From NCBI GenBank assembly GCA_964478025.1, contig CAYZGK010000004.1:8273-72272 (forward strand): a stretch of DNA of 64,000 bases, in the 5' to 3' direction. Every line of letters starts with the position of its first letter. Position 1 is the first letter of the stretch. Below are positions 8,034 through 46,930 of this stretch, piece after piece. Below the pieces are notes generated by a model. It was not told the origin of the DNA. It did no database searches and saw only the letters and a program-made list of their open reading frames with translations. The translations under genes and the position numbers were made by a program. This stretch comes from an uncultured Christensenella sp. (GTDB taxonomy: Bacteria; Bacillota; Clostridia; Christensenellales; UBA3700).

Positions 8034-8047
8034 TTAATAGAGTTATA

Positions 8048-8077
8048 GGAAGGAGGCTTTAGGGCTTCCTTCTTTTT
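8048..8077 (+). terminator. Intrinsic terminator
   Basis: GGAAGGAGGC/GCTTCCTTCT stem followed by T tract. Confidence 0.75.
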
Positions 8078-8119
8078 GTAAAGTATATAAAACATTTCTT
8101 ATAAAAAGGAAGGTAAAAT

Positions 8120-9763
8120 ATGAAAGATTTTTTAGAAAAAGTTAAAGTATTTTTTGCAAATCTTGGTGTAAAAATTTCTGAATTTTGCAAAAAACTTGGC
8201 AAAAGAAATTTAATTATTATTTCAGCTGTAATAGTAGTTGTTCTAATTGCTATTATTGTTCCATGTGCAGTAGTTGGAGCAAATAAAAGTAGTGGAAATA
8301 GTAATAATGGTGGAAACACTACAATAAGTGGTGGAGAAACTGGTGGTTCAACTGGTGGAGAAACTGGAGGATCAACTGGCGGAGAAACTGGAGGATCAAC
8401 TGGCGGCGGTGAAACAGGTGGCTATGATAATACAGCTGCTAAAGATTTTACTCTTGTAGCACTTGCTGATGGTACATATAAAGTAACTGGTTATACGGGA
8501 TCTTCTACTGCAATAGTATTCCCATCAAAATATAACGGAAAAGATGTTACAGAGATAGATGAAGCAATATTTAAGGATAAAACAACAATAAAGAGTGTTG
8601 TTATACCAAATAGTATAAAAATTATTGATAGTGAAGCATTTGCAAACTGTACAGGTCTTGAGAGTGTTACTTTAGGTACAGGATTAAAAGAAATTGGTTG
8701 GTATGCGTTTGATAATTGTTCTTCACTTACAAGTATTACAATTCCTGGTAATGTTGACACAATTGGTTTTTATTCATTCTCTAATTGTACAGGATTAACT
8801 ACTGTTAATATTGAAAATGGAGTAAGGTGTATAGAAAAACAGGCATTTTTGAGTTGTACAAGTCTTACAAATTTAACTCTTCCAAATACTTTAACAAACA
8901 TAGAAAGTGGGGCATTTTTATCAACACCAGTGTATACTAACAATTGCATTACAGAAAATGGATTAAAATATTTTGGCTATAATGGTAATTCACATTATTT
9001 ACTTGTGGAGGCAGAAAGTGACTCTCAAACTACTTATAGTATAAATGCTGATACAAAAATTATTGGTGGTTGGGCTTTTTATGGTTGTGAACAAATGACA
9101 TCTATAACCATTCCAAGTGGCGTAACGGCTATTGGAAGTGGAGCATTTGATGGTTGTTCTGCTTTAACAAGTATAATTATTCCAAACGGCGTTACAACTA
9201 TTGAAGATGATTTATTTGATGAATGTTCAGCTTTAGCTAGTGTAACTATTCCAAGTAGTGTAACAAAAATTGGAGATTCTGCTTTTTATCATTCTGGTAT
9301 AGAAAGTATTGTTATTCCTGATAGTGTAACAAAAATTGGAGATGAAGCCTTTGATGGTTGTACTAAACTTTCAAGTGTTTCAATTGGAACAGGTGTAACA
9401 AGTATTGGTAAACGTGCATTTAGGCTTACTGTTCTTACAAGTATTACAATTCCTGGTAATGTACTTAAAATTGACCAGTTTGCTTTTTTGAGTTGTGAAA
9501 ACCTTAGTAGTGTTACACTTGAAGATGGTATAACAGAAATTGAAAGAGAAGTTTTTAAAGGCTGTACGGCTTTAACTACTATAACCATTCCAACAAGTGT
9601 GAATTATATGGGCGATTATGTATTTTGTAGTTGTAAATCAGATTTAGTAATTAATATTAAAAAATCTGAATCCTCTACTTCAAATTGGGAAACTACATGG
9701 AGTGGTATCGATGTAGATCAACCACGTGATACACAATACATTCACTGGGATTATAGTGACTAA
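8120..9763 (+). CDS. BspA-type (LRR_5) surface protein with N-terminal membrane anchor and Gly/Thr linker
   Basis: N-terminal TM helix, GGETGGST repeats, many TSITIPxSVTxIGxxAFxxC repeats. Confidence 0.92.
   Translation: MKDFLEKVKVFFANLGVKISEFCKKLGKRNLIIISAVIVVVLIAIIVPCAVVGANKSSGNSNNGGNTTISGGETGGSTGGETGGSTGGETGGSTGGGETGGYDNTAAKDFTLVALADGTYKVTGYTGSSTAIVFPSKYNGKDVTEIDEAIFKDKTTIKSVVIPNSIKIIDSEAFANCTGLESVTLGTGLKEIGWYAFDNCSSLTSITIPGNVDTIGFYSFSNCTGLTTVNIENGVRCIEKQAFLSCTSLTNLTLPNTLTNIESGAFLSTPVYTNNCITENGLKYFGYNGNSHYLLVEAESDSQTTYSINADTKIIGGWAFYGCEQMTSITIPSGVTAIGSGAFDGCSALTSIIIPNGVTTIEDDLFDECSALASVTIPSSVTKIGDSAFYHSGIESIVIPDSVTKIGDEAFDGCTKLSSVSIGTGVTSIGKRAFRLTVLTSITIPGNVLKIDQFAFLSCENLSSVTLEDGITEIEREVFKGCTALTTITIPTSVNYMGDYVFCSCKSDLVINIKKSESSTSNWETTWSGIDVDQPRDTQYIHWDYSD
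8330..8422 (+). repeat. 24-nt tandem coding repeat (GGETGGST x3 plus partial)
   Basis: GGTGGAGAAACTGG(T/A)GG(T/A)TCAACT units at 8330, 8354, 8378. Confidence 0.9.
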
Positions 9764-9848: not shown

Positions 9849-9887
9849 AGTTGTATAAAGAAAAAATTATATTATATAATTTTGAAT

Positions 9888-10814
9888 ATGAAAAATAATA
9901 TAAAAGGACCTATATTGCTATTTATTACCGCAATTATTTGGGGTGTTGCCTTTGTTTCTCAAAGGTCTGCTGCCTCATATAATTTAGGTGCTTTTACATT
10001 TAATGGAATTAGATATTTATTAGGAGCTATTGTTTTAATACCTTTTGTAATTTTTATAAGGACAAGAAAGAATGGTAGTTATAGTATGCTTAGTGTAGAT
10101 GAAAAGAAAATCTATAATAAAAATACAATAATAGGTGGTATAGTTTGTGGATTGTTTTTGTGTATAGCATCAAGTTTTCAACAATTTGGAGTTGAAGGAT
10201 TATCATCTGGGAAAACAGGATTTATTACTGCCTTATATATTATTTTTGTGCCATTACTTGGATTATGTTTTAAAAAGAAATGTTCTATATTTGTCTTTAT
10301 TGCAGTGCCTGTTGCTCTTGTTGGAATGTATTTTTTATGCATGGTAGGGGAAAGTTTTGCAATAACAAAGTATGAAGTTTATGTTTTTTTATGTGCAATA
10401 TTCTTTACTTTTCAAATAAGTGCTGTAGATTATTTTGCAATTAAGGTTGATTGTGTTGCTATGGCTTGTATTGAGTTTACAGTAACTGGCTTGATAAGTC
10501 TTATAGCAATGTTTATATTTGAAAAACCAGAAATAGAAACTATAAAATCTTGTTATGTTCAAATCTTGTATTCAGGAATAATGTCTTCTGGAGTTGCATA
10601 TACATTACAAGTTGTAGGTCAAAAACATACAAATCCAACGCTCGCTTCGCTTATTATGAGTCTTGAGTCTACTATTTCAGCAATAGCAGGTTGGATTATA
10701 TTAAAAGAAAATTTATCTTGGCAACAATGGCTTGGATGTGGAATTATGTTTATAGCAATAATAATTGCACAAATACCAATGAAAAATAAAAAAACAGGGG
10801 AATTAAATCAATGA
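9888..10814 (+). CDS. DMT/EamA-family transporter
   Basis: IIWGVAFVSQR, FNGIRY, GKTGFITALYIIFVP, SGVAYTLQVVGQK, LIMSLES; ATG 9888 preferred over TTG 9882. Confidence 0.92.
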   Translation: MKNNIKGPILLFITAIIWGVAFVSQRSAASYNLGAFTFNGIRYLLGAIVLIPFVIFIRTRKNGSYSMLSVDEKKIYNKNTIIGGIVCGLFLCIASSFQQFGVEGLSSGKTGFITALYIIFVPLLGLCFKKKCSIFVFIAVPVALVGMYFLCMVGESFAITKYEVYVFLCAIFFTFQISAVDYFAIKVDCVAMACIEFTVTGLISLIAMFIFEKPEIETIKSCYVQILYSGIMSSGVAYTLQVVGQKHTNPTLASLIMSLESTISAIAGWIILKENLSWQQWLGCGIMFIAIIIAQIPMKNKKTGELNQ

Positions 10815-11410
10815 AAGCCGCAATAGTACTAAATTCACAAGCACCAATTGCAGATATTAAAGAAGATGTAATTATCGCAGCAGATAGGGGATATATTCTT
10901 GCATTAGAGCAAAATAAAACTCCTACAATAGTTATTGGAGATTTTGATTCATCAAATGCTCCAGAAAATTTAAAGATAATAAAACTAAATGTGGAAAAAG
11001 ATAATACAGATGGTGAAGCTTGTATTGATTGGGCCAAAGATAACGGCTTTAATGAAATTACTATATATGGAATAACATCTGGAAGAATTGATCATCAATT
11101 AGCTAATATTTCTCTTTTAGCCTATGGTGATAAACTAGGATTAAGAGTAGTGGGAGAGGATAGGGATTGTAGAATCTTATATTTAAAGAAAGGTAAGTAT
11201 TCTTTTGACATGAATATTAATCAAGAGTTTTCTATTTTTCCATTTGATGGTACTGCCATTATAGATAACGGGATAGGGTGTAAATATCCAATAAATAATC
11301 TTAAATTACTATCTTATTTAGGCGGTAGAGCTATTTCCAATAAAGCATTAAATAATAAAGTATCTTTTGATGTAATAGATGGTAGCGTTTTATTAATTAT
11401 TAATAAATAA
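10811..11410 (+). CDS. thiN: Thiamine pyrophosphokinase
   Basis: IAADRG, IGDFDS, EKDNTDGE, GRIDHQLANI motifs. Confidence 0.92.
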   Translation: MKAAIVLNSQAPIADIKEDVIIAADRGYILALEQNKTPTIVIGDFDSSNAPENLKIIKLNVEKDNTDGEACIDWAKDNGFNEITIYGITSGRIDHQLANISLLAYGDKLGLRVVGEDRDCRILYLKKGKYSFDMNINQEFSIFPFDGTAIIDNGIGCKYPINNLKLLSYLGGRAISNKALNNKVSFDVIDGSVLLIINK

Positions 11411-11543: not shown

Positions 11544-12047
11544 ATGAAAAAGATAGGAGCAGGTGGAAAGCTTCAGAATTATGATTCAAAAGGTAGATAT
11601 TGTAAAAATAACTATTTTGATTTTACGCCACCTGCATTTACTAAAAAAGAAATAAGAAGGCGTAAAGAAGAAAAACGTCGGCAAGAACTTTATGAAAAAG
11701 CAAAATGCAGTGATGATGCTTATATATTTGATGTATATTTAGCTTTAGAAAAAGCCATTCCTGGTGTTGTTATTGGTGTAAATGAAAAATTGTTAGATGA
11801 AAATATAGGTAAACCTCGTGAATTTGACATAATTACTAAAAAATGCATAATAGAAGTAAAGTCTAAAGCTGTTAAATGTGAAAGTCAATTACTAGCTCAA
11901 CTTAGATATACTAATTTACATAAGATAAAACATTTCTTGTATTCTCCAACTATCACTAGAGTGGCAAAATATGAATATGAGAAAAATGGAATTGATGTAA
12001 GTAAAACATTAGATGAATTAGTAAGAAAAGTAAAGGAGATGCAATAA
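11544..12047 (+). CDS. Putative PD-(D/E)xK nuclease toxin, allele T1
   Basis: REFDIITKKCIIEVKS (D95, E104, K106), downstream Q helix; RBS AAGGAGG; stop overlaps next ATG (TAATG). Confidence 0.7.
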   Translation: MKKIGAGGKLQNYDSKGRYCKNNYFDFTPPAFTKKEIRRRKEEKRRQELYEKAKCSDDAYIFDVYLALEKAIPGVVIGVNEKLLDENIGKPREFDIITKKCIIEVKSKAVKCESQLLAQLRYTNLHKIKHFLYSPTITRVAKYEYEKNGIDVSKTLDELVRKVKEMQ

Positions 12048-12418
12048 TGAGAGATATATTTTTTGTTACAAAAGAACCAATGGTTTTAGAAGATTGCTTT
12101 GAAGCTATAAAGAAAGTTTATAAATCTGCCGATACTGGTATTGGTGTTATATGTTTAGATAAGTCAGCTCCAAAATCAGCATATATGTGGTTTCCATCAT
12201 TAAAAAAATACGAACCAGGTGAGGTTTGGGAAGAGGATGATTTGAAAGATGTGCCTGATGATTATAATTATTTTACAACATTAAATTATCATCTAACGTG
12301 TGTGACTAAAAATTTTGTTAGGGCTTTACAGCCTTTGTATCCAGATATGTTAATACAAGATGATGATTCTAAGGTATATACTATCGACGAATATTTAAAT
12401 TGTAAGTTTGATCATTAA
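12047..12418 (+). CDS. Putative cognate immunity protein, allele I1
   Basis: Small acidic protein translationally coupled to the nuclease; paralog of four other copies. Confidence 0.65.
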   Translation: MRDIFFVTKEPMVLEDCFEAIKKVYKSADTGIGVICLDKSAPKSAYMWFPSLKKYEPGEVWEEDDLKDVPDDYNYFTTLNYHLTCVTKNFVRALQPLYPDMLIQDDDSKVYTIDEYLNCKFDH

Positions 12419-12464
12419 ATAATGATTAATAAATGAAATAATAAATTACTAGAGGAATTATTTT

Positions 12465-12490
12465 ACAACCGGACAATCTTGTCCGGTTGT
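12465..12490. promoter_or_regulatory. Palindrome copy 2
   Basis: ACAACCGGACAA-TC-TTGTCCGGTTGT. Confidence 0.7.
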
Positions 12491-12575
12491 GTTCTTGTTT
12501 ATGCCCTTCTTAAAGAGTGTCTTATATATCAAAATGTAGGTATACAAAAATCTCACTTTATAAGGAGGGAATATT

Positions 12576-13082
12576 ATGAAAAAGATAGGAGCAGGTGGAA
12601 AGCTTCAGAATTATGATTCAAAAGGTAGATATTGTAAAAATAACTATTTTGATTTTACGCCACCTGCATTTACTAAAAAAGAAATAAGAAGACGTAAAGA
12701 AGAAAAACGTCGGCAAGAACTTTATGAAAAAGCAAAAAATAGTGATGATGCTTATGTGTTTGATGTGTACTTAACTTTAGAAAAAGCAATGCCGGGTGTT
12801 GTTATAGGCGTAAATGAATATAGATTAGATGAAAATATAGGTAAACCCCGTGAATTTGACATAATCACTAAAAAATGCATAATAGAAGTAAAGTCAGAAA
12901 AGGCTGCAAAGAAAGAAAAACAATTATTAGCACAATTAAAATATGCCAATTCGCATAAGTTAAAACATTTTTTATATTCGCCTACTATTACTAGAGCAAG
13001 GAAGTATGAATATGAGAAAAATGGAATTAATGTAAGTAAAACATTAGATGAGTTAATTAGAAAACTAAAGGAGATGCAATAA
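12576..13082 (+). CDS. Putative PD-(D/E)xK nuclease toxin, allele T2
   Basis: Same N-terminal 54 aa and catalytic motif as T1; C-terminal half diverged. Confidence 0.7.
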   Translation: MKKIGAGGKLQNYDSKGRYCKNNYFDFTPPAFTKKEIRRRKEEKRRQELYEKAKNSDDAYVFDVYLTLEKAMPGVVIGVNEYRLDENIGKPREFDIITKKCIIEVKSEKAAKKEKQLLAQLKYANSHKLKHFLYSPTITRARKYEYEKNGINVSKTLDELIRKLKEMQ

Positions 13083-13453
13083 TGAGAGATATATTTTTTG
13101 TTACAAAAGAACCAATGGTTTTAGAAGATTGCTTTGAAGCTATAAAGAAAGTTTATAAATCTGCCGATACGGGTATTGGTGTTATATGTTTAGATAAGTC
13201 AGCTCCGAAATCAGCATATATGTGGTTTCCATCATTAAAAAAATATGACCCAGATGAGTTTTGGGAAGAGGATGAATTAGAAAATATACCAGATGATTAT
13301 AATTATTTTACAAATTTAGAATATCATTTATCTTGTGTGTCTAAAAATTTTGTTAAGGCATTACAGCCTCTATATCCAGATATGCTTATACAAGATGATG
13401 ATTATGTAGTATATACCATCGAAGAATATTTAAATTGTAAGTTTGATCATTAA
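13082..13453 (+). CDS. Putative immunity protein, allele I2
   Basis: First 55 aa identical to I1, rest diverged; TAATG coupling. Confidence 0.65.
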   Translation: MRDIFFVTKEPMVLEDCFEAIKKVYKSADTGIGVICLDKSAPKSAYMWFPSLKKYDPDEFWEEDELENIPDDYNYFTNLEYHLSCVSKNFVKALQPLYPDMLIQDDDYVVYTIEEYLNCKFDH

Positions 13454-13499
13454 ATAATGATTAATAAATGAAATAATAAATTACTAGAGGAATTATTTT

Positions 13500-13525
13500 A
13501 CAACCGGACAATCTTGTCCGGTTGT
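13500..13525. promoter_or_regulatory. Palindrome copy 3
   Basis: Identical to copy 2. Confidence 0.7.
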
Positions 13526-13610
13526 GTTCTTGTTTATGCCCTTCTTAAAGAGTGTCTTATATATCAAAATGTAGGTATACAAAAATCTCACTTTATAAGG
13601 AGGGAATATT

Positions 13611-14117
13611 ATGAAAAAGATAGGAGCAGGTGGAAAGCTTCAGAATTATGATTCAAAAGGTAGATATTGTAAAAATAACTATTTTGATTTTACGCCACCT
13701 GCATTTACTAAAAAAGAAATAAGAAGACGTAAAGAAGAAAAACGTCGGCAAGAACTTTATGAAAAAGCAAAAAATAGTGATGATGCTTATGTATTTGATG
13801 TGTATTTAGCTTTAGAAAAAGCAATGCCTGGTGTGGTTATAGGTGTAAATGAATATTTATACGATGAAAATATTAAAGATAAAAGGGAGTTTGACATAAT
13901 TACTAAAAAATGCATAATAGAAGTAAAGTCAGGCGATGTAGTAAAGAGGGAGAAACAATTTTTGGCACAGCTAAAGTATACAAAGTTTCATGGGGTACAA
14001 TATTTTATTTTTGCTCCGGATTTAAATAGAATTAGAACTTATCAATATACCAAAGATGGATTTAACATAAGTAAAACGTTAGATGAATTAATAAGAAAAG
14101 TAAAGGAGATACAATAA
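13611..14117 (+). CDS. Putative PD-(D/E)xK nuclease toxin, allele T3
   Basis: Same N-terminus and motif; C-terminal half identical to T4. Confidence 0.7.
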   Translation: MKKIGAGGKLQNYDSKGRYCKNNYFDFTPPAFTKKEIRRRKEEKRRQELYEKAKNSDDAYVFDVYLALEKAMPGVVIGVNEYLYDENIKDKREFDIITKKCIIEVKSGDVVKREKQFLAQLKYTKFHGVQYFIFAPDLNRIRTYQYTKDGFNISKTLDELIRKVKEIQ

Positions 14118-14485
14118 TGAGAGATATATTTTTTGTTACAAAAGAACCAATGATTTTAGATGATTGTTATATAGAAATAAAGAAAGTTTATAAAAAAAGC
14201 GAAAAAAGCAATTGTAAAATTAGTTTATATGGAGCTCCAAAATCAGCATATATGTGGTTTCCTTCATTAAAAAAATATGACCCAAGTGAATATTGGGGTG
14301 AAGATGAATTGGAAAATATACCTGATGATTATAATTATTTTACAAATCTTGAATATCATCTAACGTGTGTATCTAAAAATTTTGTTAGGGCTTTACAACC
14401 ATTGTATCCAGATATGCTAATACAAGATGATTATCTAAAAGTATATACAATTGAAGAATATTTAAGTTGTAAGTTTGACCATTAG
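14117..14485 (+). CDS. Putative immunity protein, allele I3
   Basis: Paralog of I1/I2; TAATG coupling. Confidence 0.65.
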   Translation: MRDIFFVTKEPMILDDCYIEIKKVYKKSEKSNCKISLYGAPKSAYMWFPSLKKYDPSEYWGEDELENIPDDYNYFTNLEYHLTCVSKNFVRALQPLYPDMLIQDDYLKVYTIEEYLSCKFDH

Positions 14486-14528: not shown

Positions 14529-15176
14529 CTACTTTTTTTGATTTTTTATTTTATTTTTAAATTTTGTTTTATATTCATTTTCGTATTCTTTAGGATCCTC
14601 TCCATTGTAAACTAATAGTTTATTAAGTCTTTCTATTGATGGAAATAGGGAGTCTTCATAATTTCTGAAATTTTGAATTAATTTATCAAAATCTTTTATG
14701 CTAATTGTTGGATCTTCGTCTCTTATATCTACACAATAATTTTTATTTTCAAAATTATCATTAAGTCTATTTAAGTATATTTGTGTTTCCTTATCTAAAC
14801 ACTCAAAAATATATTCTTCACCATTGGGTAAATTTGGATTTTTGATTTTTTTAGGAATAATAACAAGTGAAAACATAAGTCTATTTAGTCTTTTAAATGA
14901 TGCTTCCCAGGTATATAGGTTGTCATCAGATGTCTCTTTATTAAGAATTAGATAATCAAGTGAAACATTATATAAATCAGCTAGAGCAACTAGAAAATCG
15001 ATTTTTGGGGAACATTTTCCTTGTTCATATCGTCTAATAGTTCTTTCGTCAATTATTAAATAATGTTTATTTTGTAATTTTTCTATAACATTATCTATTG
15101 TATATTGTTTTTCTTTTCTTAATATTCTAAGTCGTTTACCTACATTTTTTCTAAAGTTTTCATCTGAAATAAACAT
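14529..15176 (-). CDS. XRE/Cro-C1 HTH transcriptional regulator with C-terminal extension
   Basis: VGKRLRILRKEKQYT...TIRRYEQGKCSPKIDFLVALADLYNVSLDYL; RBS AGGTAGGTG. Confidence 0.92.
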   Translation of the reverse strand: MFISDENFRKNVGKRLRILRKEKQYTIDNVIEKLQNKHYLIIDERTIRRYEQGKCSPKIDFLVALADLYNVSLDYLILNKETSDDNLYTWEASFKRLNRLMFSLVIIPKKIKNPNLPNGEEYIFECLDKETQIYLNRLNDNFENKNYCVDIRDEDPTISIKDFDKLIQNFRNYEDSLFPSIERLNKLLVYNGEDPKEYENEYKTKFKNKIKNQKK

Positions 15177-16209: not shown

Positions 16210-16578
16210 ATGAGAGATATATTTTTTGTTACAAAAGAACCAATGAATGTAGAGGATTGCTATAAGGAAATAAGTAAAATTTATAAAAAAGCAGAAAAAC
16301 TAAATGAACAAATATCTTTAGATAATTATCCTAAATCGGCCCTTATGTGGTTTCCATCATTAAAAAAATATGATCCAAGTGAATATTGGGGTGAAGATGA
16401 ATTAGAAAACATACCGGAAGATTATAATTATTTTACAAATCTTGAGTATCATTTAACTTGTGTATCTAAAAATTTTGTTAGGGCATTACAACCATTGTAT
16501 CCAGATATGCTAATACAAGATGCTTATTTGAAAGTATATACAATTGAAGAATATTTAAATTGTAAATTTGACCATTAA
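16210..16578 (+). CDS. Orphan immunity allele I5
   Basis: Full-length paralog with no upstream nuclease gene. Confidence 0.7.
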   Translation: MRDIFFVTKEPMNVEDCYKEISKIYKKAEKLNEQISLDNYPKSALMWFPSLKKYDPSEYWGEDELENIPEDYNYFTNLEYHLTCVSKNFVRALQPLYPDMLIQDAYLKVYTIEEYLNCKFDH

Positions 16579-16764: not shown

Positions 16765-18432
16765 ATGAGTAAAAAAAGATGCTCGATTTTGTATATTTTT
16801 ATTCTATGTGTGCTATTTGTTACTAGTATTATTTTTTTGAACGCTTGTTCGTCAGAAAATTTAGTTTCCATTACTATAAGTGGTGATACAGAAATATTGG
16901 CAGGTAATTTTGATTTCTCAAATTATATGGTTGAAGCAACATACGATACAGGAGAAGTTAAAAAAGTTGAATTAACAAAAGATATGCTATCTTCTGAGGA
17001 TTATTTAAAAGTTTTTTCAGATGGAGATAAAACTTTAACTATTAACTATGGTGGTTTAACTTGTGAACTTAACTTAAAGGTTTGTTTATATGAGTTTACA
17101 GATTTGAAATTTAATGATATAGAAACAACATATTCAGGCTCATATGTAACAGCAGAAGTTGTTAATAATTATCCTGAAGGAACTACAGTTTACTACCCAT
17201 CTGGGAATAGTTTTTTAAATGCTGGAACTTATGAAGTTACAGCTATCGTTTCAAGAAGAAACTATATTACACAAACATTAACAGCAACAGTTGTTATTAA
17301 TCAAGCAGAGTACGATATGTCAAATGTCTCATTTATAGATACTACTTTTGAATATGATGGGAAAGAGCATTCAACAGTAATTACAGGGGATTTACCAAGT
17401 GGTGTAACTGTAACATACCCGGATAATAACAATAAAAAAACAAATGCTGGCACTTATGATGTTAAAGCTTGTTTTTCATTTGATGGAAACAACTATAAAC
17501 AAATTCCAGATATGACTGCTAAAATGACTATAAATAAGAAAAAATATAATACTGAGAATTTAACATTTAGCAGTGAAAAAATAACATATGATGGAAAGGA
17601 ACATACATTGCAAGTTTCTAATTGCCCATCAAATGTTAGAGTAGAATATCAAGTAGGAATGTATAAAAATGATAAATACACTGATATAACAGGCAGTAAA
17701 TTAGTTGATGCTGATACATATTATTTTACGGCAAAATTTTATTCAAATGATGTAAATTACGAAGATATTCCTGATATGCATGCTCAGTTAATTATTGATC
17801 AAGCAATCTATGATACAAGTATAATTTCAATGGATAGTAAGGAAGTGGATTATAATGGAAAACCTCAAACTCTTACTCCATATATGCTAGATGGTTCTAA
17901 AGATCTTCCAAGCGACTTATACATTTTGTATAGTTATTATACAAAAGATGGAAAAGAAATTATAGAATCATATGATGAAGATAATTCACCTATTTATGCT
18001 CAATCGGTTACTGATTATGGAACTTATGTGTATACTGTTCAGCTTTGGAGTAAAGATGAAAATTATTATGTAGATAGTGAATTAACTGCAACATTAATAA
18101 TTAATAAAATAGATTATAATGTAGATGATGTTTCAGTTGATGATTATAAATATACAGGAGAGAAAATAAGTGTAACTGTTAATAATATTCCTTCTGATTT
18201 AAGTGGAAATAAATTAGGAGTGAAACTTTCATATTTCACTGAAAAGCCAGCTTTGGATGAAAATGGCAAATATAATTACATAACAGACAACGAAGGGAAC
18301 CCAGTAACTGGTGTAACTGATGAGGGTGATTACTTTGTTATGATAGAATTTACGGATCAAAATAACGAAAACTATAACGAATTAAAACCTATAGTAAAAT
18401 CCTTTAAGATAACAAAGGAGGCAAGTGTATGA
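16765..18432 (+). CDS. Lipoprotein with Ig-like domain and MBG-like repeats
   Basis: Lipobox LNAC (Cys28); repeated YDGKEH...NAGTYxV...NYxxIPDMxAxLxI units; ATGA overlap with VirD4. Confidence 0.8.
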   Translation: MSKKRCSILYIFILCVLFVTSIIFLNACSSENLVSITISGDTEILAGNFDFSNYMVEATYDTGEVKKVELTKDMLSSEDYLKVFSDGDKTLTINYGGLTCELNLKVCLYEFTDLKFNDIETTYSGSYVTAEVVNNYPEGTTVYYPSGNSFLNAGTYEVTAIVSRRNYITQTLTATVVINQAEYDMSNVSFIDTTFEYDGKEHSTVITGDLPSGVTVTYPDNNNKKTNAGTYDVKACFSFDGNNYKQIPDMTAKMTINKKKYNTENLTFSSEKITYDGKEHTLQVSNCPSNVRVEYQVGMYKNDKYTDITGSKLVDADTYYFTAKFYSNDVNYEDIPDMHAQLIIDQAIYDTSIISMDSKEVDYNGKPQTLTPYMLDGSKDLPSDLYILYSYYTKDGKEIIESYDEDNSPIYAQSVTDYGTYVYTVQLWSKDENYYVDSELTATLIINKIDYNVDDVSVDDYKYTGEKISVTVNNIPSDLSGNKLGVKLSYFTEKPALDENGKYNYITDNEGNPVTGVTDEGDYFVMIEFTDQNNENYNELKPIVKSFKITKEASV

Positions 18433-20780
18433 AGAAAAAATTAGAGTCTATAGGTATTATCGCATTAGTTAATCTAGTTATATCAAATATAGTAGTATTT
18501 GCTATACTTAGAACTTCAGTTAATTTTGGTGATTATCTAAGATACGAGATTTTCTTATTTGTATATTTAATGCTATTTTCAAATGTATTTTTCTCAAACA
18601 AGTTTTGTAGTGGAAAAGCTCAAGAATGGTTATTCTTCTTGTCAGTTTCTTTCTTAGTATCAAGTTTGCTTGCATACATTTTATATTCAATTATTATAAG
18701 TGATTGGAAAATGGACCAAATAGCATGGGTGGAAAGTATTAAATCTATAATTAATGTAGACTTTATGTTCTATGGTATAGCTCTTGCATTTTTAATTGCT
18801 TTTGTCGCTCTATATTGTGGTGTATTTGATAGAGACATCTTAAGATTTGTAAGAACTTCTGGCCTTATTGGACAAGGAAAAATAAAGAGTATTGAAGCAA
18901 ACCTTGAAAATTCACGTTGGATGAACCAAGAAGAAAAAGAAAAGAATTTTAAGAAATATTCTTACACAAAATTAGATAGTGTAAATAAAGATGGTATTCC
19001 TGTAATGGCACAAATGAATAGAAAAGGTAAAGATGAAACTATTATGTTTAATTCTCCTTGTCACTCAATTATCATTGGTGCAACAGGTTCTGGTAAGACA
19101 ACAACATTTGTAAGTCCAATGATTCAAATATTAGCTTCTACAAACGCTGGTTCTTCTATGGTAATGACAGACCCTAAGGGAGAATTATTTGCACTTCATT
19201 CTAAATATCTTCAAGAAAGGGGATATGATGTAAAAGTTATTGATTTAAGAGATACATATTCATCATATAGATGGAATCCACTTGATGATATATGGGATAG
19301 TTATAGAAAATATGCAGAGGCTCATAACAATGTTTATTTACACAAAGATAAATTACCAAAAGACAAACCTTTAGGAAGCAAAAAGGAAAGTTTTGAAGGT
19401 AAGGATTCTTGGTATGAATTTGAGGGAAAAGCTTATGCTGAATATCAAGACCTTGTAAATGCAATTAAAGTTTTCAAGAGAAAAACTTATGATGAAGTTT
19501 ATGAAGATTTAAATGACTTAGTATCAGTTTTAATTCCAATAGAAAATGAAAGAGATCCTATGTGGGAAAAAGGTGCAAGAAGTATTGTACTTGCTACTCT
19601 TTTAGCTATGCTTGAAGATAGTGAAAATGAAGCTTTAGGTATGACTAAAGAAAAGTTTAATTTCTTTAACATGGCTAAGATATTACAAAACTCAACAGAG
19701 GATTATAAGGAACTTAGAAGATATTTTGCAGGAAGAAGTCAATTATCTAAAGCTTTCTCATTATCAAAACAAGTTTGTGATGCAGCAGAATCAACACGTG
19801 CCTCATATATGTCAGTTGTATATGAAAAATTAACATTATTTAATGATGCTGGTATTTGTGGATTAACATCATCCTCAGATTTTAAACCTGAAGATTTAGC
19901 TTTAAGACCAACTGCATTATTCTTAAAGATTCCAGATGAAAAAACAACAAGACATAATTTGGCTGGAATATTTGTATTAAATTTATATAAACAACTTATA
20001 AAGGTAGCTTCGCTTAGAGAGGACTTATCTTTACCTAGAAATGTTTATTATATACTTGATGAGTTTGGTAACATGCCAAAGATTGAAAACTTCGATAAGA
20101 TGATAACAGTTGGTAGAAGCCGTAAGATTTGGTTTAACATGATTGTTCAATCATATTCACAATTAAATAACGTTTATGGAGATAAGGTTGCAGATATCGT
20201 AAAGAGTAACTGTGGAGTAAAGATGTTTATTGGTTCTAATGATATGACAACATGTAAAGAATTCTCTGAACTTTGTGGAAATATAACAGTTGTTACAAGA
20301 TCTACAAGTGGTAGTGACATGGATAAATCTATAAATGTTTCAACTCAAACTCAAGTTAGACCTCTTATTTATCCATCTGAACTTCAAAGACTTAATCATG
20401 GTTCAGATATAGGTCACTCAATTATAGTAACATTTGGTAATTATCCATTTAAGAGTTATTTTACCCCTAGTTTTAAGGTTCCTTTATATAAAATGGGTAC
20501 AATGAATACAGAGTTTTTAAATGAAAGATATTTTGATGAACAAGCTATCTTTTATGATATAAGCAAGAGAAACAGTTTAGTCTTTGGAAAACAAAAAGAA
20601 GTAGCTGTTAAAAATAAAGGAGTTAAATTAACTCAAAACAAGAAAGAAGGTCTAGAGAATCAAAATAAAGAGGATCTAGCTCGTGATACTCAATTGTTTG
20701 ATAGATTTATGAAGTTTAAGAAAGAACATCCAGATCTTACTGAAAACGAAATATTTGATAGATTGGAGGGCTTGTCTTAG
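18429..20780 (+). CDS. VirD4/TraG-like type IV coupling protein with N-terminal TM region
   Basis: GATGSGKT, MTDPKGEL, RWNPL, YYILDEFGN, GRSRKIW, IVQSYSQLxxVYG. Confidence 0.95.
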   Translation: MKKKLESIGIIALVNLVISNIVVFAILRTSVNFGDYLRYEIFLFVYLMLFSNVFFSNKFCSGKAQEWLFFLSVSFLVSSLLAYILYSIIISDWKMDQIAWVESIKSIINVDFMFYGIALAFLIAFVALYCGVFDRDILRFVRTSGLIGQGKIKSIEANLENSRWMNQEEKEKNFKKYSYTKLDSVNKDGIPVMAQMNRKGKDETIMFNSPCHSIIIGATGSGKTTTFVSPMIQILASTNAGSSMVMTDPKGELFALHSKYLQERGYDVKVIDLRDTYSSYRWNPLDDIWDSYRKYAEAHNNVYLHKDKLPKDKPLGSKKESFEGKDSWYEFEGKAYAEYQDLVNAIKVFKRKTYDEVYEDLNDLVSVLIPIENERDPMWEKGARSIVLATLLAMLEDSENEALGMTKEKFNFFNMAKILQNSTEDYKELRRYFAGRSQLSKAFSLSKQVCDAAESTRASYMSVVYEKLTLFNDAGICGLTSSSDFKPEDLALRPTALFLKIPDEKTTRHNLAGIFVLNLYKQLIKVASLREDLSLPRNVYYILDEFGNMPKIENFDKMITVGRSRKIWFNMIVQSYSQLNNVYGDKVADIVKSNCGVKMFIGSNDMTTCKEFSELCGNITVVTRSTSGSDMDKSINVSTQTQVRPLIYPSELQRLNHGSDIGHSIIVTFGNYPFKSYFTPSFKVPLYKMGTMNTEFLNERYFDEQAIFYDISKRNSLVFGKQKEVAVKNKGVKLTQNKKEGLENQNKEDLARDTQLFDRFMKFKKEHPDLTENEIFDRLEGLS

Positions 20781-40419: not shown

Positions 40420-41592
40420 TTAGTCTTCATCTTCATTTGCTAATACTTCTTTTTTATTAGCAAATGAAGGATTTAATGAATTTACAAAAGCTTTAGATGA
40501 AAGTAAAATTGCGCCTAAAACCATATTAAATATCATATCTACAAATACAAATGAGTTATATACTGCAGAATAGGCAAATACATTCATGTTTTCTGGACAA
40601 TATGCAGAGAATGCAAATATGCCAGAAATTAAATGAGCTATATATCTAAAGATAGCAACACAAAAAGCACCTAAAACAAATTTAACTTGAGGTAATTTTT
40701 CTAAGGCTTTTAAGTTGCTAAATATTCCAGTAAATGCAACCATTGCAAAAGCAATAGGGTAGTCTAATAAAAATTGTGCTGGATGAATTATGAATGGATC
40801 TTGTATTGCTTGTAATATTCCATAAATAAATCCTATAGCTAAACCTTTTTTAGGGCCATGCATATAAGCATAAAGCATTATTGGAAGTAATGATACTAAA
40901 GTTATTGAACCTCCTTGAGGAAGATTAAATATCTTTACGTAAGATAGGGCAAAACTTGTTGCAATACAAATGCCTGCTCTTGCAATAGATTTTGTATCAA
41001 ATATTAGATTTCCTTTTTTATCTATAACTAAAACGGCAGCTAAAAGGGCAATAAATAAAACTATTGCTCCGATAATAAGTGCTGCTTGATTTACAGAGGC
41101 TGTATTAGAGTTATAATAGCCATCACTTTCGATGTGGTTTGTATAATACAAAGCTACCATCGTTATGGTAAATATTATAGATGTGATTATAATGGTTGCT
41201 GCTATATAATAAAATGTCTTTATAAGTTCAGGTTTTTTCTTATTTATAATTGCGTTTGCTATAAAGCAAAGAACAATAACACCAAGTGTAATAAATATTG
41301 GCATAAATACATAAATTAAAACATCGCTACTGATCCAATTTTCATCAAGATATTCACTATTATAGTGTTTGTATAAGTCCATAATTAATAGAGTAATTTC
41401 TATTAAAATTGCATATACAACAAATGATATAGTTGCGTACTTTGCGTATTTTTTTAGCATTGTAAAGTTTAGTGCGTAGATTACTACGCCTACAATTACA
41501 AGGGTTGTTAAGATTCCGATTGTTAACCATGTAGCAATAGGTTGGAACGTGTCAACAGCATAAGTTTTGGCACACATAATTAAATTAAACAT
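40420..41592 (-). CDS. thiT: ThiT-family ECF S-component with extra N-terminal multi-TM domain
   Basis: C-terminal half LPQGGSIT...GPKKG...HPAQFLLDYPIAF...SGIFAF is ThiT-like; about 190 extra N-terminal aa. Confidence 0.85.
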   Translation of the reverse strand: MFNLIMCAKTYAVDTFQPIATWLTIGILTTLVIVGVVIYALNFTMLKKYAKYATISFVVYAILIEITLLIMDLYKHYNSEYLDENWISSDVLIYVFMPIFITLGVIVLCFIANAIINKKKPELIKTFYYIAATIIITSIIFTITMVALYYTNHIESDGYYNSNTASVNQAALIIGAIVLFIALLAAVLVIDKKGNLIFDTKSIARAGICIATSFALSYVKIFNLPQGGSITLVSLLPIMLYAYMHGPKKGLAIGFIYGILQAIQDPFIIHPAQFLLDYPIAFAMVAFTGIFSNLKALEKLPQVKFVLGAFCVAIFRYIAHLISGIFAFSAYCPENMNVFAYSAVYNSFVFVDMIFNMVLGAILLSSKAFVNSLNPSFANKKEVLANEDED

Positions 41593-41715
41593 AAAAAAAC
41601 TCCTTTAGCTAAGGAGAACTTTTAAGAAATAAAATATATGTATTTTTACTTCCTTTCGCCGCTTCCGGCGTAAGTTCAAAGGGTATAATCTCAGCCTTAA
41701 TAGGCACCCCTAGCT
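41593..41715 (-). ncRNA. TPP-riboswitch-like leader (variant aptamer plus terminator/RBS hairpin)
   Basis: Minus strand GGGGUGCC..GGCUGAGA..ACCC..GAAC..GGAAGU; then CUCCUU-AGCUA-AAGGAG-U7 directly before the AUG. Confidence 0.8.
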
Positions 41716-41721
41716 AGATAT

Positions 41722-41750
41722 AATATATATCAATAAAGAATACTTGTCAA
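41722..41750 (-). promoter_or_regulatory. SigA promoter for riboswitch-thiT
   Basis: TTGACA-17-TATATT on minus strand. Confidence 0.8.
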
Positions 41751-44149: not shown

Positions 44150-44223
44150 AATCGATGAAGTGTTCGGAGAGTAAGAAGTAATATAGAGTATTATATGACT
44201 CCGCGCATTGCGGAGTTTTTTTT
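44150..44223 (+). promoter_or_regulatory. Candidate transcription attenuator
   Basis: ACTCCGC-GCATT-GCGGAGT-T7 terminator just before the RBS; upstream CGGAG (44165-44169) can pair with CTCCG. Confidence 0.55.
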
Positions 44224-44234
44224 ATGGAGGAGAT

Positions 44235-44486
44235 ATGTTAAGAATAGGCGTAATTGGTATTGTTTTAAAACAAAACAAGGAAACCGCAACAAAAATCCAA
44301 GGATTATTATCTTTATATTCAAATATAATCGTTGGAAGAATGGGAGTTCCAGATAAAGAAAATGGAATTTCTACAATTGCTGTTATTGTGAAGGGTACTA
44401 ATGAGGAAATTTCAGCATTAACTGGAAAACTTGGAAAGTTAGAGAGCGTTTCTGTAAAGTCTGCTTTAACATCAATGGAGGTTTAA
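44235..44486 (+). CDS. TM1266-family (NikR C-terminal-like) small regulator
   Basis: RIGVIGIV...IIVGRMGVP...ISALTGKLGKLESVSVK; RBS GGAGGA. Confidence 0.85.
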   Translation: MLRIGVIGIVLKQNKETATKIQGLLSLYSNIIVGRMGVPDKENGISTIAVIVKGTNEEISALTGKLGKLESVSVKSALTSMEV

Positions 44487-44487
44487 A

Positions 44488-45498
44488 ATGAAAAAAACAT
44501 CCTTAATAATTTTAATGATTTTAGTTTTATCTTTATCATGCACATTCTTTGCATGTCAAAATAAAGAAACAGTACATAATGAGTATACAATTGTATCTCC
44601 AGATGGAGCTCCAGCCTTATCTTTAGTTGGTCTTATTGGGAAAGATTATTCTAGTAAAACATATTCTTTTTCCCCATCAATAGTTTCATCATCATTAATT
44701 GCAAGTGAAGCGATTAAAAGTGATTTTGCTATTGTACCAGTTAATTTAGCTGCTAATTTATATAACAAGGGCAAAGGTTATTTAATGGCTGCAGTTGTTA
44801 CAAATGGAAATATGTATATTGTGTCAAATACTAACGATACTGATTTTAAATTAGAAAGTTTAAAAGGCAAGAAATTATATACAATAGGACAAGGATCAGT
44901 TCCAGCGTTTATACTTTTATCTTTATTAAAGAAAAACAATATAAATTACGAAGAATCTGAAACTATAGTTGATGAAAATACTGTATCAATTCAATATTGC
45001 GCTGATGGTAGTGAACTTATTCAAAAACTTGCTCAAGCAACTAAAAATGGTGAGACAGTTTATGGAAATTTAGCAGAGCCTGCCGTTTCTAATATGGTAA
45101 ATAAAGGTATAGGATACTCGCTAAGTTCACTTCAAACTTTATGGCAAAGTGCAACAAATTCTTCAATTAATGGATTTGCTCAAGCAGTTTTAATTGTTAA
45201 AGAAGAAATTTATAAAAATAATAAAGATATTGTTGATGCTATGATTTTAGAGTTATCTTTTTCTGCAAATAATATCTTAGACGAATCTGTAAATATTGAA
45301 AACACTATTAAGTCTATATATCCTGAAACTACAATAAAGGCTATGAGTCAAGAAACTATTTCTCGTTGTAATGTAAAGACTTATAAAGCAAAAGATAATG
45401 TGGATTATATTATTGAAACACTAAATGCAGTGTATCAGTTAAATCCAACAGCAGTTGGGGGACAAGTTCCAAGTAAGGATTCAGGTTTTTATATTTAA
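44488..45498 (+). CDS. ABC substrate-binding lipoprotein (SsuA/NMT1-like)
   Basis: Lipobox FFAC; SPDGAPAL, PVNLAANLYNKG, GQGSVP, LAEPA. Confidence 0.85.
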   Translation: MKKTSLIILMILVLSLSCTFFACQNKETVHNEYTIVSPDGAPALSLVGLIGKDYSSKTYSFSPSIVSSSLIASEAIKSDFAIVPVNLAANLYNKGKGYLMAAVVTNGNMYIVSNTNDTDFKLESLKGKKLYTIGQGSVPAFILLSLLKKNNINYEESETIVDENTVSIQYCADGSELIQKLAQATKNGETVYGNLAEPAVSNMVNKGIGYSLSSLQTLWQSATNSSINGFAQAVLIVKEEIYKNNKDIVDAMILELSFSANNILDESVNIENTIKSIYPETTIKAMSQETISRCNVKTYKAKDNVDYIIETLNAVYQLNPTAVGGQVPSKDSGFYI

Positions 45499-46259
45499 TG
45501 GAAAATAAGAAAATAAAGATTTTTGATATACTATTACCATTTATTACAATAGGAATAATTTTTATTGTATGGGTTATTGTAAGTAAAATTATAGACGAGG
45601 AAATAATATTTCCAAAGCTTTCTAGTACTTTAAAATCTTTATTTAGTTTGTTAAAAACAAAGGAATTTTATATAGCATTATTAAACACAATTATAAGGAT
45701 CTTAATATCTTTTTTAATATCTTTTATACTTGCAATTATACTTGCAATTTTAGCGTCACTATCTAAATATGCAGGTAAAATAATGTCGATATTTTCTGTT
45801 ATTGTGCAAAGTATTCCAACAATGTCAATAATACTTATATCTCTTATTTGGCTAACAACGATGCGTGCGCCGCTGCTTGTTGCTATTTTAGTTACTTTTC
45901 CTATTATGTTTACCTCGTTTTTACAGGCTATAAATAACATAGATAAAAATCTTTTAGAGATGGTTAATGTATATAAAGTGCCATTAAGTAGGAAAATTAA
46001 GTATTTATATATTCCACAAATAGCGCCATCAATGTTTTCGGCAATGAAAAGTTCTATATCTTTAAATGTAAAGGTAATTATAGCAGCAGAGGTAATGGCA
46101 CAAACAAAAGACAGCATAGGCGTTAAAATGCAACTATCTTCACTTTATTTAGAGATGAGTGAATTGTTTGCTTGGACTATAGTTTCAATAATTCTTGGCC
46201 TTATATTTGAAGGTGTAATTTTACTTATACAAAAGTTGTATTTAAGGAGCACAAGATGA
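45498..46259 (+). CDS. ABC permease (SsuC/TauC-like)
   Basis: IPTMSII, LEMVNVYKV, YIPQIAP, IIAAEV. Confidence 0.88.
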   Translation: MENKKIKIFDILLPFITIGIIFIVWVIVSKIIDEEIIFPKLSSTLKSLFSLLKTKEFYIALLNTIIRILISFLISFILAIILAILASLSKYAGKIMSIFSVIVQSIPTMSIILISLIWLTTMRAPLLVAILVTFPIMFTSFLQAINNIDKNLLEMVNVYKVPLSRKIKYLYIPQIAPSMFSAMKSSISLNVKVIIAAEVMAQTKDSIGVKMQLSSLYLEMSELFAWTIVSIILGLIFEGVILLIQKLYLRSTR

Positions 46260-46930
46260 TAATTAAAAACTTGAATTTATCTTATGGAGATAATATCTTA
46301 TATAAAGATTTTTCACTAGATATTTTAGATAGTGAAATTACTTGTATACTTGGTAAAAGTGGTTGTGGAAAAACAAGTTTTTTAAATGTGCTTTGTGGTA
46401 GTGTTAAGTATAGTGGAGTTGTTGAAAATACAGAGAAAATAGGTTATGTATTTCAAACGCCAAGACTTATTAATTCAATTTCAATAAAGAAAAATCTTGA
46501 ACTTGTATTGAAAAACAAAGATGAAAATAAAATAGATGATTTGCTAAAAGAACTTGAAATATATGAAATAAAAAATAAATATCCAGGTGAAATTTCAGGT
46601 GGAGAGGCAAGTAGGGTATCAATAGCTAGAGCTCTTTTATTTGAACCAAAAATTTTACTTTTAGATGAACCATTTACCGGCCTTGATGTAGTTAGAAAAA
46701 ATAATCTAATAAAGAAGTTAAATCAAATGGTTTTAGATAGAAAGATAGGACTTATATATGTAACTCATGATGTAGACGAAGCCCTTTTAATTGCAAATAG
46801 AGTACTAGTTTTGGATGAAAGACCAGTTAAGATAAAACTTGATTTAAAAATAGAGGGAAAAGAAAGAGATCTAGCTTCAAAAGAAATAAATGAGGCTAGG
46901 GAAAAAATATATAGCAATTTACTTTCATAA
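46256..46930 (+). CDS. ABC ATP-binding protein (SsuB/TauB-like)
   Basis: GKSGCGKT, VFQ, ISGGE, LLLDEPF, VTHD. Confidence 0.93.
   Translation: MIIKNLNLSYGDNILYKDFSLDILDSEITCILGKSGCGKTSFLNVLCGSVKYSGVVENTEKIGYVFQTPRLINSISIKKNLELVLKNKDENKIDDLLKELEIYEIKNKYPGEISGGEASRVSIARALLFEPKILLLDEPFTGLDVVRKNNLIKKLNQMVLDRKIGLIYVTHDVDEALLIANRVLVLDERPVKIKLDLKIEGKERDLASKEINEAREKIYSNLLS

What the first reader, a model, noticed from the sequence alone, without database searches (positions are those of the whole stretch)
41593..41720. TPP-riboswitch variant lacking the pyrophosphate-sensing pocket
The minus-strand RNA reads GCUA GGGG UGCC UAUUAA GGC UGAGA UUAU ACCC UUUGA A CUU A CGCCG GAAG CGGCG A AAG GAAGU. The pyrimidine-binding arm (P2/P3, UGAGA) is canonical. 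In P4/P5 the conserved GAU/CGU internal loop that holds Mg-pyrophosphate is reduced to an A/A mismatch, and the UAAU loop that docks on P3 is replaced by GAAG. The context looks functional: a consensus promoter directly upstream, a terminator hairpin containing the RBS, and aptamer-3' AAGGA able to pair with the terminator's UCCUU arm. It may sense thiamine, TMP or HMP instead of TPP. I cannot check whether this variant has been reported.
Basis: partly seen in the sequence, partly recalled or inferred. Interest (0 to 1): 0.75.

Follow-up and report, generated by a model that had tools for sequence, protein, structure and literature searches.

The report
Thiamine riboswitch with remodelled pyrophosphate arm
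The leader of a thiamine-transporter gene in an uncultured gut Clostridia bacterium is a real, selectively maintained derivative of the TPP riboswitch whose pyrophosphate-sensing arm has become a plain hairpin; variants of this general kind were mentioned in 2017 as sensing thiamine as well as TPP, so this is an extreme example of a known theme, not a new class.

Summary
Window 41593-41750 (minus strand) holds a near-consensus promoter, a thi-box aptamer (Rfam TPP 48.2 bits, below the 54.3 gathering score, E 2e-6 for the window), a terminator that contains the RBS, and a 390-aa ThiT gene.

The pyrimidine arm and the junction are identical to those of canonical sister leaders. The P4/P5 arm is CUU-A-CGCCG-GAAG-CGGCG-A-AAG. 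G60 is lost, the former C77-G78 are predicted to be base-paired, and the UAAU loop is gone.

The arm is derived: the nearest relatives (L102, L105, L002) have canonical arms. It occurs only in one narrow clade, as 4 arm haplotypes in 12 sequences.

It is not decay. Between lineages that differ at 33% of four-fold sites, the leader outside the P5 apex differs at 1 of 118 bases. The apex itself changes faster than synonymous sites.

McCown et al. 2017 already reported many TPP variants with P4-P5 mutations that bind thiamin, TMP and TPP alike. No full paper on them is in the library.

Most likely this is an OFF switch that reads thiamine-family compounds through the HMP pocket without counting phosphates. 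The ligand is untested. Interest is moderate.

The parts
41745..41750 (-). -35 box TTGACA
   Evidence: Promoter scan, 11 of 12 match with 17-nt spacer. CAATTGACA is conserved in relatives.
41722..41727 (-). -10 box TATATT
   Evidence: It places the transcription start about 41715, at the 5' end of P1 (inferred).
41712..41716 (-). P1 5' strand UAGCU. It is also part of the antiterminator 5' strand.
   Evidence: Rfam alignment. The P1 core is U-A, C-G, G.U, then an A/A mismatch; the canonical sister L102 has the same.
41708..41711 (-). P2 5' strand AGGG, followed by bulged G41707 and U41706
   Evidence: P2 pairs covary across 85 related leaders.
41694..41705 (-). P3 hairpin GCCU-AUUA-AGGC
41684..41694 (-). 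J3-2 CUGAGAUUAUA, the pyrimidine (HMP) pocket with the invariant CUGAGA
   Evidence: Invariant in all 81 aligned leaders. Identical to canonical sister L102. Role of G40/G42/A43 from PMC3764141.
41680..41683 (-). P2 3' strand CCCU
41675..41679 (-). J2-4 UUGAA. GAA plus the P4 5' strand also forms the second antiterminator segment GAACUU.
41672..41674 (-). P4 5' strand CUU
   Evidence: Pairs with AAG at 41653-41655.
41656..41671 (-). Remodelled arm A-CGCCG-GAAG-CGGCG-A. An A/A mismatch (41671, 41656) flanks a 5-bp G+C stem with loop GAAG (41662-41665). It replaces the J4-5/J5-4 pyrophosphate loop, P5 and L5.
   Evidence: Haplotypes in relatives: CGCC-AACGG-GGCG, CGC-CAAAC-GCG, CGCC-AACAAC-GGCG.
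41653..41655 (-). P4 3' strand AAG
41646..41652 (-). J4-1 GA and P1 3' strand AGUAA
41624..41654 (-). Competing hairpin X: AGGAAGUAAAA (P4/P1 3' strands) pairs with UUUUAUUUCUU in the linker
   Evidence: Part of the MFE of the full leader. An analogous hairpin is predicted in L102 and L095. For L002 and L105 it was read by eye from the sequences.
41606..41621 (-). Antiterminator 3' strand AAGUUC-UCCUUAGCUA. It pairs with GAACUU and UAGCUAGGGG of the aptamer.
   Evidence: MFE. 97.5% of cells paired in 15 leaders, with one pair covarying A-U/G-C.
41593..41616 (-). Intrinsic terminator CUCCUU-AGCUA-AAGGAG plus U7. The 3' arm AAGGAG (41600-41605) is the RBS.
40420..41592 (-). thiT, the energy-coupling-factor thiamine transporter S component, 390 aa with an N-terminal membrane extension
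   Evidence: Pfam PF09515, 2.1e-38. More than 1300 homologues, some named ThiT by NCBI.
10811..11410 (+). Thiamin pyrophosphokinase (context: converts imported thiamine to TPP)
   Evidence: Pfam PF04263, 3.5e-20. It lies next to thiT in relative L105.

Best explanation
This is a transcription-terminating OFF riboswitch derived from a canonical TPP riboswitch. It controls the thiamine importer ThiT in a thiamine-salvaging Clostridia bacterium that has ThiT plus thiamin pyrophosphokinase.

The HMP-pyrimidine pocket (P2/P3, CUGAGA...ACCC) and the three-way junction are unchanged. In one recent lineage the P4/P5 arm was rebuilt. The internal loop that holds Mg-pyrophosphate became an A/A mismatch flanked by Watson-Crick pairs. 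The former C77-G78 now pair with a new C-G on the 5' side. The L5 loop that docks on P3 became an unconstrained cap.

Without ligand, the 5' strands of P1/P2 and GAACUU pair with the terminator's 5' arm and loop (antiterminator), and the P4/P1 3' strands fold with the linker (hairpin X). The gene is then on. With ligand held in the pyrimidine pocket, P1, P2 and P4 are kept, and the terminator forms. This stops transcription and buries the RBS.

Because the pyrophosphate contacts are gone, the RNA most probably responds to thiamine, TMP and TPP alike and does not respond to TPP specifically. This is what has been reported for other P4-P5-mutated TPP aptamers.

- Shown here: the anatomy, the derived state, the purifying selection, and the shared expression platform.
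- Inferred: ligand binding, its specificity, and the switching.
For: - **Identity.** Rfam TPP 48.2 bits, full length. ThiT lies downstream and TPK is in the window.
- **Intact parts.** From P1 to P4 5' and from J5-4 to P1 3', the sequence is identical to canonical sister L102, which scores 68.1 bits.
- **Pocket lost.** G60 is now A, and A61-U62 are now C-G, complementary to the retained C77-G78. In haplotype L086 the arm can form a hairpin only if those C-G pairs form. The roles of G60, C77, G78 and L5 come from PMC3764141 and bioRxiv 2025.01.21.634073.
- **Derived state.** The leaders of the nearest ThiT relative (L105, 51% identity) and of L102, L095, L002 and L019 carry G-N-N/CGA loops and UAAU-type L5.
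- **Selection.** WIN and L001 differ at 42 of 127 four-fold sites, but at 1 of 118 leader bases outside the apex (binomial 1.5e-19). There is no local recombination signal.
- **Helices.** They are supported across 85 related leaders: 98% of cells paired, 11 of 15 pairs with compensatory change, 0 of 500 shuffles as high.
- **Platform.** The same antiterminator is the MFE in variant and canonical sisters, and pair 8-130 covaries A-U/G-C.
- **Precedent.** P4-P5-mutated TPP variants bind thiamin about as well as TMP and TPP (PMC5473149).
Against:
- In canonical aptamers the ligand bridges the two arms. With one contact gone, it is unclear how binding would hold P1 and P4.
- P1 is only 3 pairs plus a mismatch, although the canonical sister L102 is the same.
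- Only 4 arm haplotypes exist, all from one narrow clade, so there is no covariation within the new stem.
- Near-total conservation of the leader could reflect constraint on the alternative structures and not on ligand binding.
- The apex evolves faster than neutral sites, which is unexplained.
- The sequences of the published P4-P5 variants are not available, so likeness to them cannot be checked.
Confidence: 0.55

Rival explanations
1. Ligand-blind relic. The aptamer no longer binds anything. The leader folds by default into the antiterminator, so thiT is constitutively on. The leader is conserved because its structures set a basal level of read-through, mRNA stability or translation.
For: The pocket and the L5 docking are lost. 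The antiterminated fold is the MFE by 4.3-6.7 kcal/mol in the variant clade, against 1.6-4.2 in canonical sisters. The P5 apex drifts rapidly with indels. P1 is weak. A thiamine auxotroph may tolerate constitutive uptake.
Against: Every base of the HMP pocket and the junction is retained at 33% neutral divergence, 1 of 118 differences. A dead aptamer should accumulate changes there first. The terminator is kept intact directly over the RBS, which is costly if never used. All four haplotypes keep at least 3 G-C pairs next to the A/A.
Confidence: 0.2
2. Still TPP-selective. The retained C77-G78 and the conserved A/A pair form a different Mg-pyrophosphate site, so the RNA remains a TPP sensor with an unusual arm.
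For: The 3' side CGAAAGG of the arm is unchanged from canonical sisters. The A...A flanking bases are invariant in all haplotypes. TPP is the end product of the ThiT-TPK route.
Against: G60, which is among the highly conserved positions and contacts the metal ion that coordinates the pyrophosphate, is replaced. C-G/G-C pairing of the former loop is strongly favoured. In L086 that pairing is the only way to form the hairpin. Stem length varies from 3 to 5 bp and the loop varies freely, which would move any apical contact.
Confidence: 0.12
3. New specificity for a phosphate-free pyrimidine compound. The RNA would sense HMP, a thiamine breakdown product or an analogue, and reject TPP. This would make it a truly separate riboswitch class.
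For: Only the HMP pocket is kept. The HMP-PP riboswitch is a precedent for a thiamine-precursor sensor (PMC6478431).
Against: The regulated gene is ThiT and the organism carries TPK, with no HMP salvage or biosynthesis gene seen in the window. Nothing in the remodelled arm suggests a feature that would exclude phosphorylated forms. The published precedent is loss of discrimination, not a new preference.
Confidence: 0.08

Closest known systems
TPP riboswitch (thi-box, Rfam RF00059)
   Same: Three-way junction P1, P2/P3 and P4/P5. Invariant CUGAGA...ACCC pyrimidine pocket. J2-4 UUGAA and the GGAA junction bases. Association with a thiamine transporter. A terminator/antiterminator OFF platform shared base for base with canonical sister leaders.
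   Different: Scores 48.2 bits, under the gathering score of 54.3. G60 is replaced, the C77-G78 equivalents are predicted to be paired, the internal loop is reduced to A/A, and L5 UAAU is replaced by a variable 4-6-nt cap, so the L5-P3 contact cannot be the canonical one.
TPP riboswitch variants with mutations in the P4-P5 pyrophosphate-binding core (McCown et al. 2017, RNA 23:995, citing Roth et al. in prep.)
   Same: A TPP scaffold with an altered pyrophosphate core, in bacteria. The expected consequence is that thiamin, TMP and TPP are not told apart.
   Different: Their sequences and consensus are not published in the library searched, so identity with them cannot be tested. The variants abundant among this window's relatives (J4-5 G, J5-4 AG or AA) keep the GUAAU L5 loop. 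The window's arm has lost the loop as well, and arose separately from a canonical-type ancestor.
HMP-PP riboswitch (thiS motif; Atilho et al. 2019, eLife 8:e45210)
   Same: Another RNA sensor in thiamine metabolism whose ligand is not TPP, and which works through an intrinsic terminator.
   Different: It is a small aptamer embedded in the terminator stem, an ON switch. It is linked to thiS and thiazole genes and often sits after a TPP riboswitch. None of that applies here.

Membership tests
TPP riboswitch RF00059 | Three-way junction with P1, P2/P3 and P4/P5 helices | tested here: met
   Full-length Rfam alignment. The helices covary across 85 related leaders.
TPP riboswitch RF00059 | Pyrimidine-sensor bases CUGAGA (U39-A43) and ACCC | tested here: met
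   Present at 41694-41689 and 41684-41681. Invariant in 81 aligned leaders.
TPP riboswitch RF00059 | Pyrophosphate-sensor internal loop with conserved G60 (J4-5) and unpaired C77-G78 (J5-4) | tested here: not met
   G60 is now A. C77-G78 are retained but complementary to the new C-G on the 5' side, and Rfam flags the A/A. All folds predict a continuous helix. Conservation of these bases from PMC3764141.
TPP riboswitch RF00059 | L5 loop (U68-U71, UAAU) docking in P3 | tested here: not met
   The loop is GAAG here, and AACGG, CAAAC and AACAAC in the closest relatives.
TPP riboswitch RF00059 | Score at or above the curated gathering threshold | tested here: not met
   48.2 against 54.3 bits.
TPP riboswitch RF00059 | Selective binding of TPP over thiamine and TMP | not testable with these tools
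   Needs in-line probing, ITC or termination assays.
P4-P5-mutated TPP variants (McCown 2017) | [quoted passage not shown] | tested here: met
   Definition from PMC5473149.
P4-P5-mutated TPP variants (McCown 2017) | Similar affinity for thiamin, TMP and TPP | not testable with these tools
   This is a biochemical property.
P4-P5-mutated TPP variants (McCown 2017) | Match to the consensus of that collection | not testable with these tools
   The consensus was not found in the searchable library.
HMP-PP riboswitch (thiS motif) | Small aptamer embedded in the terminator stem; ON switch; linked to thiS and HET-P genes | tested here: not met
   The aptamer here is a separate 70-nt three-way junction upstream of the terminator, and the gene is thiT. 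Definition from PMC6478431.

The most novel reading that the evidence does not exclude
The RNA is a working minimal thiamine sensor. It switches using the pyrimidine pocket alone, without the ligand bridging two arms and without the L5-P3 contact. Its specificity would differ from both canonical TPP riboswitches and the loop-retaining P4-P5 variants, for example thiamine or HMP-type compounds preferred over TPP. The P5 cap would be free to vary, or even under diversifying pressure.
Probability: 0.2. Interest if true: 0.65.

Novelty: new variant of a known kind. Interest (0 to 1): 0.4.

Why it matters
TPP riboswitches are the most widespread riboswitch class and a drug target. How far their pyrophosphate arm can be simplified while regulation is kept is poorly documented.

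This lineage offers a natural series on one otherwise identical leader: canonical sisters, then A/A plus stems of 5, 4 or 3 bp with four different caps. The series could show directly whether inter-arm bridging and L5 docking are needed for switching. It could also show what such RNAs read out in a thiamine-salvaging gut bacterium.

There is a practical point for annotation. This RNA and about two thirds of the ThiT leaders in related uncultured Clostridia fall below the Rfam threshold. Thiamine regulation in these gut genomes is therefore under-annotated.

Tried and rejected
- **Metagenome scan.** I scanned metagenome contigs for CTGAGA-N(2-6)-ACCCTTTGAACTT-N(8-38)-AAAGGAAG. It returned 18 loci, all with canonical-type arms and none of the window type. 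The variant could be enlarged only through ThiT homologues of at least 85% identity.
- **Literature.** Searches for a full paper on thiamin-sensing TPP variants found only the 2017 remarks.
- **Recombination.** Recent recombination as the cause of leader conservation is rejected. Flanking coding windows are 82-93% identical and the promoter spacer is diverged.
AAGGA/UCCUU is possible by sequence. However, the AAGGAAG segment pairs with the linker in every MFE, and the covarying pair supports the 5'-strand antiterminator.
- **Weak P1 as a sign of decay.** Rejected, because canonical L102 has the same P1.
- **Internal duplication in ThiT.** Not supported as the source of the long ThiT.
- **A second thi-box in the window.** None was found, either with Rfam at E up to 0.05 or with the clade model R1.
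- **P1 in the clade model.** It was left out because its register differs between leader types.
- **CM alignment offset.** The alignment puts the P4 3' strand of the CUU/AAG group one column off. This explains the 16 'other' cells at pair 126-159.

Full report
**What is there**

On the minus strand, 41750-41722 holds TTGACA-17 nt-TATATT, matching 11 of 12 consensus positions. The transcript would start near 41715.

A 30-nt A/U-rich linker follows, then the hairpin CUCCUU-AGCUA-AAGGAG, seven U, and the ATG at 41592. The 3' arm of that hairpin is the ribosome-binding site.

The gene encodes a 390-aa protein. Its C-terminal half is the thiamine S-component ThiT (PF09515, 2.1e-38). It has more than 1300 homologues of similar length in uncultured Clostridia, several named ThiT by NCBI.

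**Is it more than chance?**

Rfam's TPP model aligns end to end to 41634-41721 at 48.2 bits. E is 1.8e-8 for 500 nt and 2.3e-6 for the whole window. That is under the family's gathering score of 54.3, so the default scan is silent.

The score is lost in P4/P5. There is an A/A where the fourth P4 pair should be. There are C-G and G-C where the consensus has the unpaired AU/CG. There are four loop bases in place of uUAAUa.

**What the missing parts normally do**

In E. coli thiM numbering, the highly conserved positions include U39-A43 (pyrimidine pocket), U59 and A80 (P4), G60 (J4-5) and C77-G78 (J5-4). G60, C77 and G78 contact the metal that coordinates the pyrophosphate, and G78 also touches the pyrophosphate directly. 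L5 (U68-U71) docks in P3 (PMC3764141; bioRxiv 2025.01.21.634073).

Here the equivalents are:
- U59 is kept.
- G60 is now A.
- A61-U62 are now C-G.
- C77-G78 are kept but complementary to that new C-G.
- U79 is now A.
- L5 is GAAG.

Every fold gives a continuous helix with a single A/A mismatch.

**Relatives**

A profile of long ThiT proteins recovered 80 loci from species-representative genomes. All are uncultured Clostridia or Christensenellales-like MAGs, and nearly all have a thi-box 170-300 nt upstream.

Look-ups of the six closest ThiT clusters (85-99% identity) gave the window's own clade. A metagenome pattern scan gave 18 further leaders with the same P4.

In the window's clade the arm occurs in four forms:
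- CGCCG-GAAG-CGGCG in the window, L109, L081 and L082.
- CGCC-AACGG-GGCG in L083, L084 and L085.
- CGC-CAAAC-GCG in L086.
- CGCC-AACAAC-GGCG in L001, L107 and L108.

All four lie between the same CUU-A and A-AAG. In L086 a hairpin exists only if the former C77-G78 pair with the 5' C-G. This supports the paired reading of the arm.

Outside this clade the leaders most like it have canonical arms:
- L102 has CUU-GGA-CAAG-AUAAUU-CUUG-CGA-AAG and scores 68.1 bits.
- L105, next to the nearest ThiT (51% identity), has CUU-GUAA-CAAG-GUAAUA-CUUG-CGG-AAG.
- L002 and L019 score 61-64 bits.

The window-type arm is therefore derived, recent and narrowly distributed.

**Decay or maintained?**

The window and L001 differ at 42 of 127 four-fold degenerate sites in thiT (33%) and at 15% of amino acids. 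Yet the 124-nt transcribed leader shows only five substitutions, and four of them fall in the six apical bases of P5. Outside the apex the count is 1 of 118, with a binomial probability of 1.5e-19 at the neutral rate.

Flanking coding windows are 82-93% identical and the promoter spacer is diverged, so a recent transfer of the leader does not explain this. The pyrimidine pocket, the junction, the P4 base, the linker and the terminator have thus been under purifying selection since the arm was remodelled.

The apex behaves in the opposite way. L083 and L086 differ at 8.8% of four-fold sites, but their arms differ by a length change and a substitution. The cap carries no sequence constraint. Its rate even exceeds neutral, which I cannot explain.

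**Structure support**

A covariance model of P2-P5 built on 81 leaders aligned 85 of them. 98% of cells are paired, 11 of 15 pairs show compensatory changes, and no shuffle out of 500 reaches the observed values. The alignment is fitted to the model, so this leans towards the structure.

**Expression platform**

The minimum-energy fold of the full leader is an antiterminator. UAGCUAGGGG (P1/P2 5' strands) and GAACUU (J2-4/P4 5' strand) pair with AAGUUC-UCCUUAGCUA (terminator 5' arm and loop). AGGAAGUAAAA (P4/P1 3' strands) pairs with UUUUAUUUCUU in the linker.

The same architecture is predicted for the variant leaders and for canonical sisters L102 and L095. The antiterminated state is favoured by 4.3-6.7 kcal/mol in the variants and by 1.6-4.2 kcal/mol in the canonical sisters.

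Among 15 leaders, 97.5% of the antiterminator cells pair. One pair, between the P1 5' strand and the terminator loop, covaries A-U (6 sequences) against G-C (9 sequences). This is probably a single event.

The P1 core is only U-A, C-G, G.U followed by A/A, but canonical L102 has the same P1. The logic is that of an ordinary OFF switch: whatever holds P1, P2 and P4 together lets the terminator form over the RBS.

**Physiology**

The window also encodes EamA and thiamin pyrophosphokinase at 9882-11410. In L105 these two genes lie directly beside thiT. The organism therefore imports thiamine and makes TPP from it. No thiamine biosynthesis gene and no second thi-box were seen in the window.

**What is known**

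McCown et al. [quoted passage not shown] TMP and TPP', that they occur in many bacteria, and that they sometimes occur in the same genome as canonical ones. They cite a manuscript in preparation. I found no later full account in the library.

Among this window's relatives such variants are in fact the majority. 29 leaders have J4-5 G with J5-4 AG, and 25 have G with AA. All keep GUAAU-type L5 loops. The representatives scanned score 33-49 bits against Rfam.

The window's arm is a separate and more radical case. It arose from a canonical-type ancestor and lost the L5 loop as well.

**Verdict**

The functional interpretation is plausible but untested, and 'instead of TPP' should read 'without telling TPP from thiamine'.

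My estimates:
- 0.55 for a working thiamine-family sensor with relaxed phosphate discrimination.
- 0.20 for a ligand-blind but structurally constrained leader.
- 0.12 for a still TPP-selective RNA.
- 0.08 for a new phosphate-free specificity.

It is a new variant of a known kind, of moderate interest. Its main value is as a natural minimal series for testing what the pyrophosphate arm contributes to switching.

Noticed in passing
L003-L080 (leaders upstream of long thiT, e.g. L010:2348-2442, L031:2273-2370): About two thirds of the ThiT leaders in related uncultured Clostridia have a collapsed P4/P5 internal loop: J4-5 G with J5-4 AG in 29 and AA in 25. They keep the GUAAU L5 loop. The representatives scanned score 33-49 bits against Rfam TPP (gathering score 54.3), so standard annotation misses them. 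Their helices covary strongly.
   Followed up: partly
window 41662-41666 and the equivalent bases in L083, L086, L001: The P5 cap changes faster than synonymous sites. L083 and L086 differ at 8.8% of four-fold sites, but their arms differ in length and sequence. The rest of the leader is almost invariant. The cause is unknown; hairpin-templated mutation and diversifying selection are candidates.
   Followed up: partly
window 11500-38400: About 27 kb of conjugative-element-like genes: a VirD4/TraG coupling protein (18429-20780), a VirB4/TraG P-loop ATPase (30700-33333), ORFs of 2473 aa and 1662 aa without informative domains, and an HTH regulator (14529-15176). They sit between EamA-TPK and thiT. 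In relative L105, EamA-TPK lie directly next to thiT.
   Followed up: partly
window 11544-14485 and 16210-16578: Three tandem copies of a two-gene cassette (167/168 aa plus 122/123 aa; 78-89% and 75-88% identity), plus a fourth copy of the small ORF. There is no Pfam match. The larger protein has an identical N-terminus and a diverging C-terminus, which is reminiscent of polymorphic toxin-immunity arrays.
   Followed up: partly
window 40420-41592: ThiT is 390 aa. The PF09515 domain covers only residues 204-366. The N-terminal membrane region of about 200 aa has no Pfam match, is conserved in more than 1000 homologues, and is not an internal duplication.
   Followed up: partly
window 44208-46930: An operon of a TM1266-like ACT-type regulator, an NMT1/THI5-like substrate-binding protein, an ABC permease and an ATPase, 2.6 kb from thiT. 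THI5-like binding proteins include HMP-precursor binders, but no riboswitch was detected upstream.
   Followed up: no
window 6798-9763: Two adjacent BspA-type leucine-rich-repeat surface proteins (411 and 547 aa).
   Followed up: no
L100:2908-3009: A leader from a different metagenome has the same CUU/AAG P4 with a 1x1 G/A internal loop and L5 GUAGUG. This is another independent reduction of the pyrophosphate loop.
   Followed up: no
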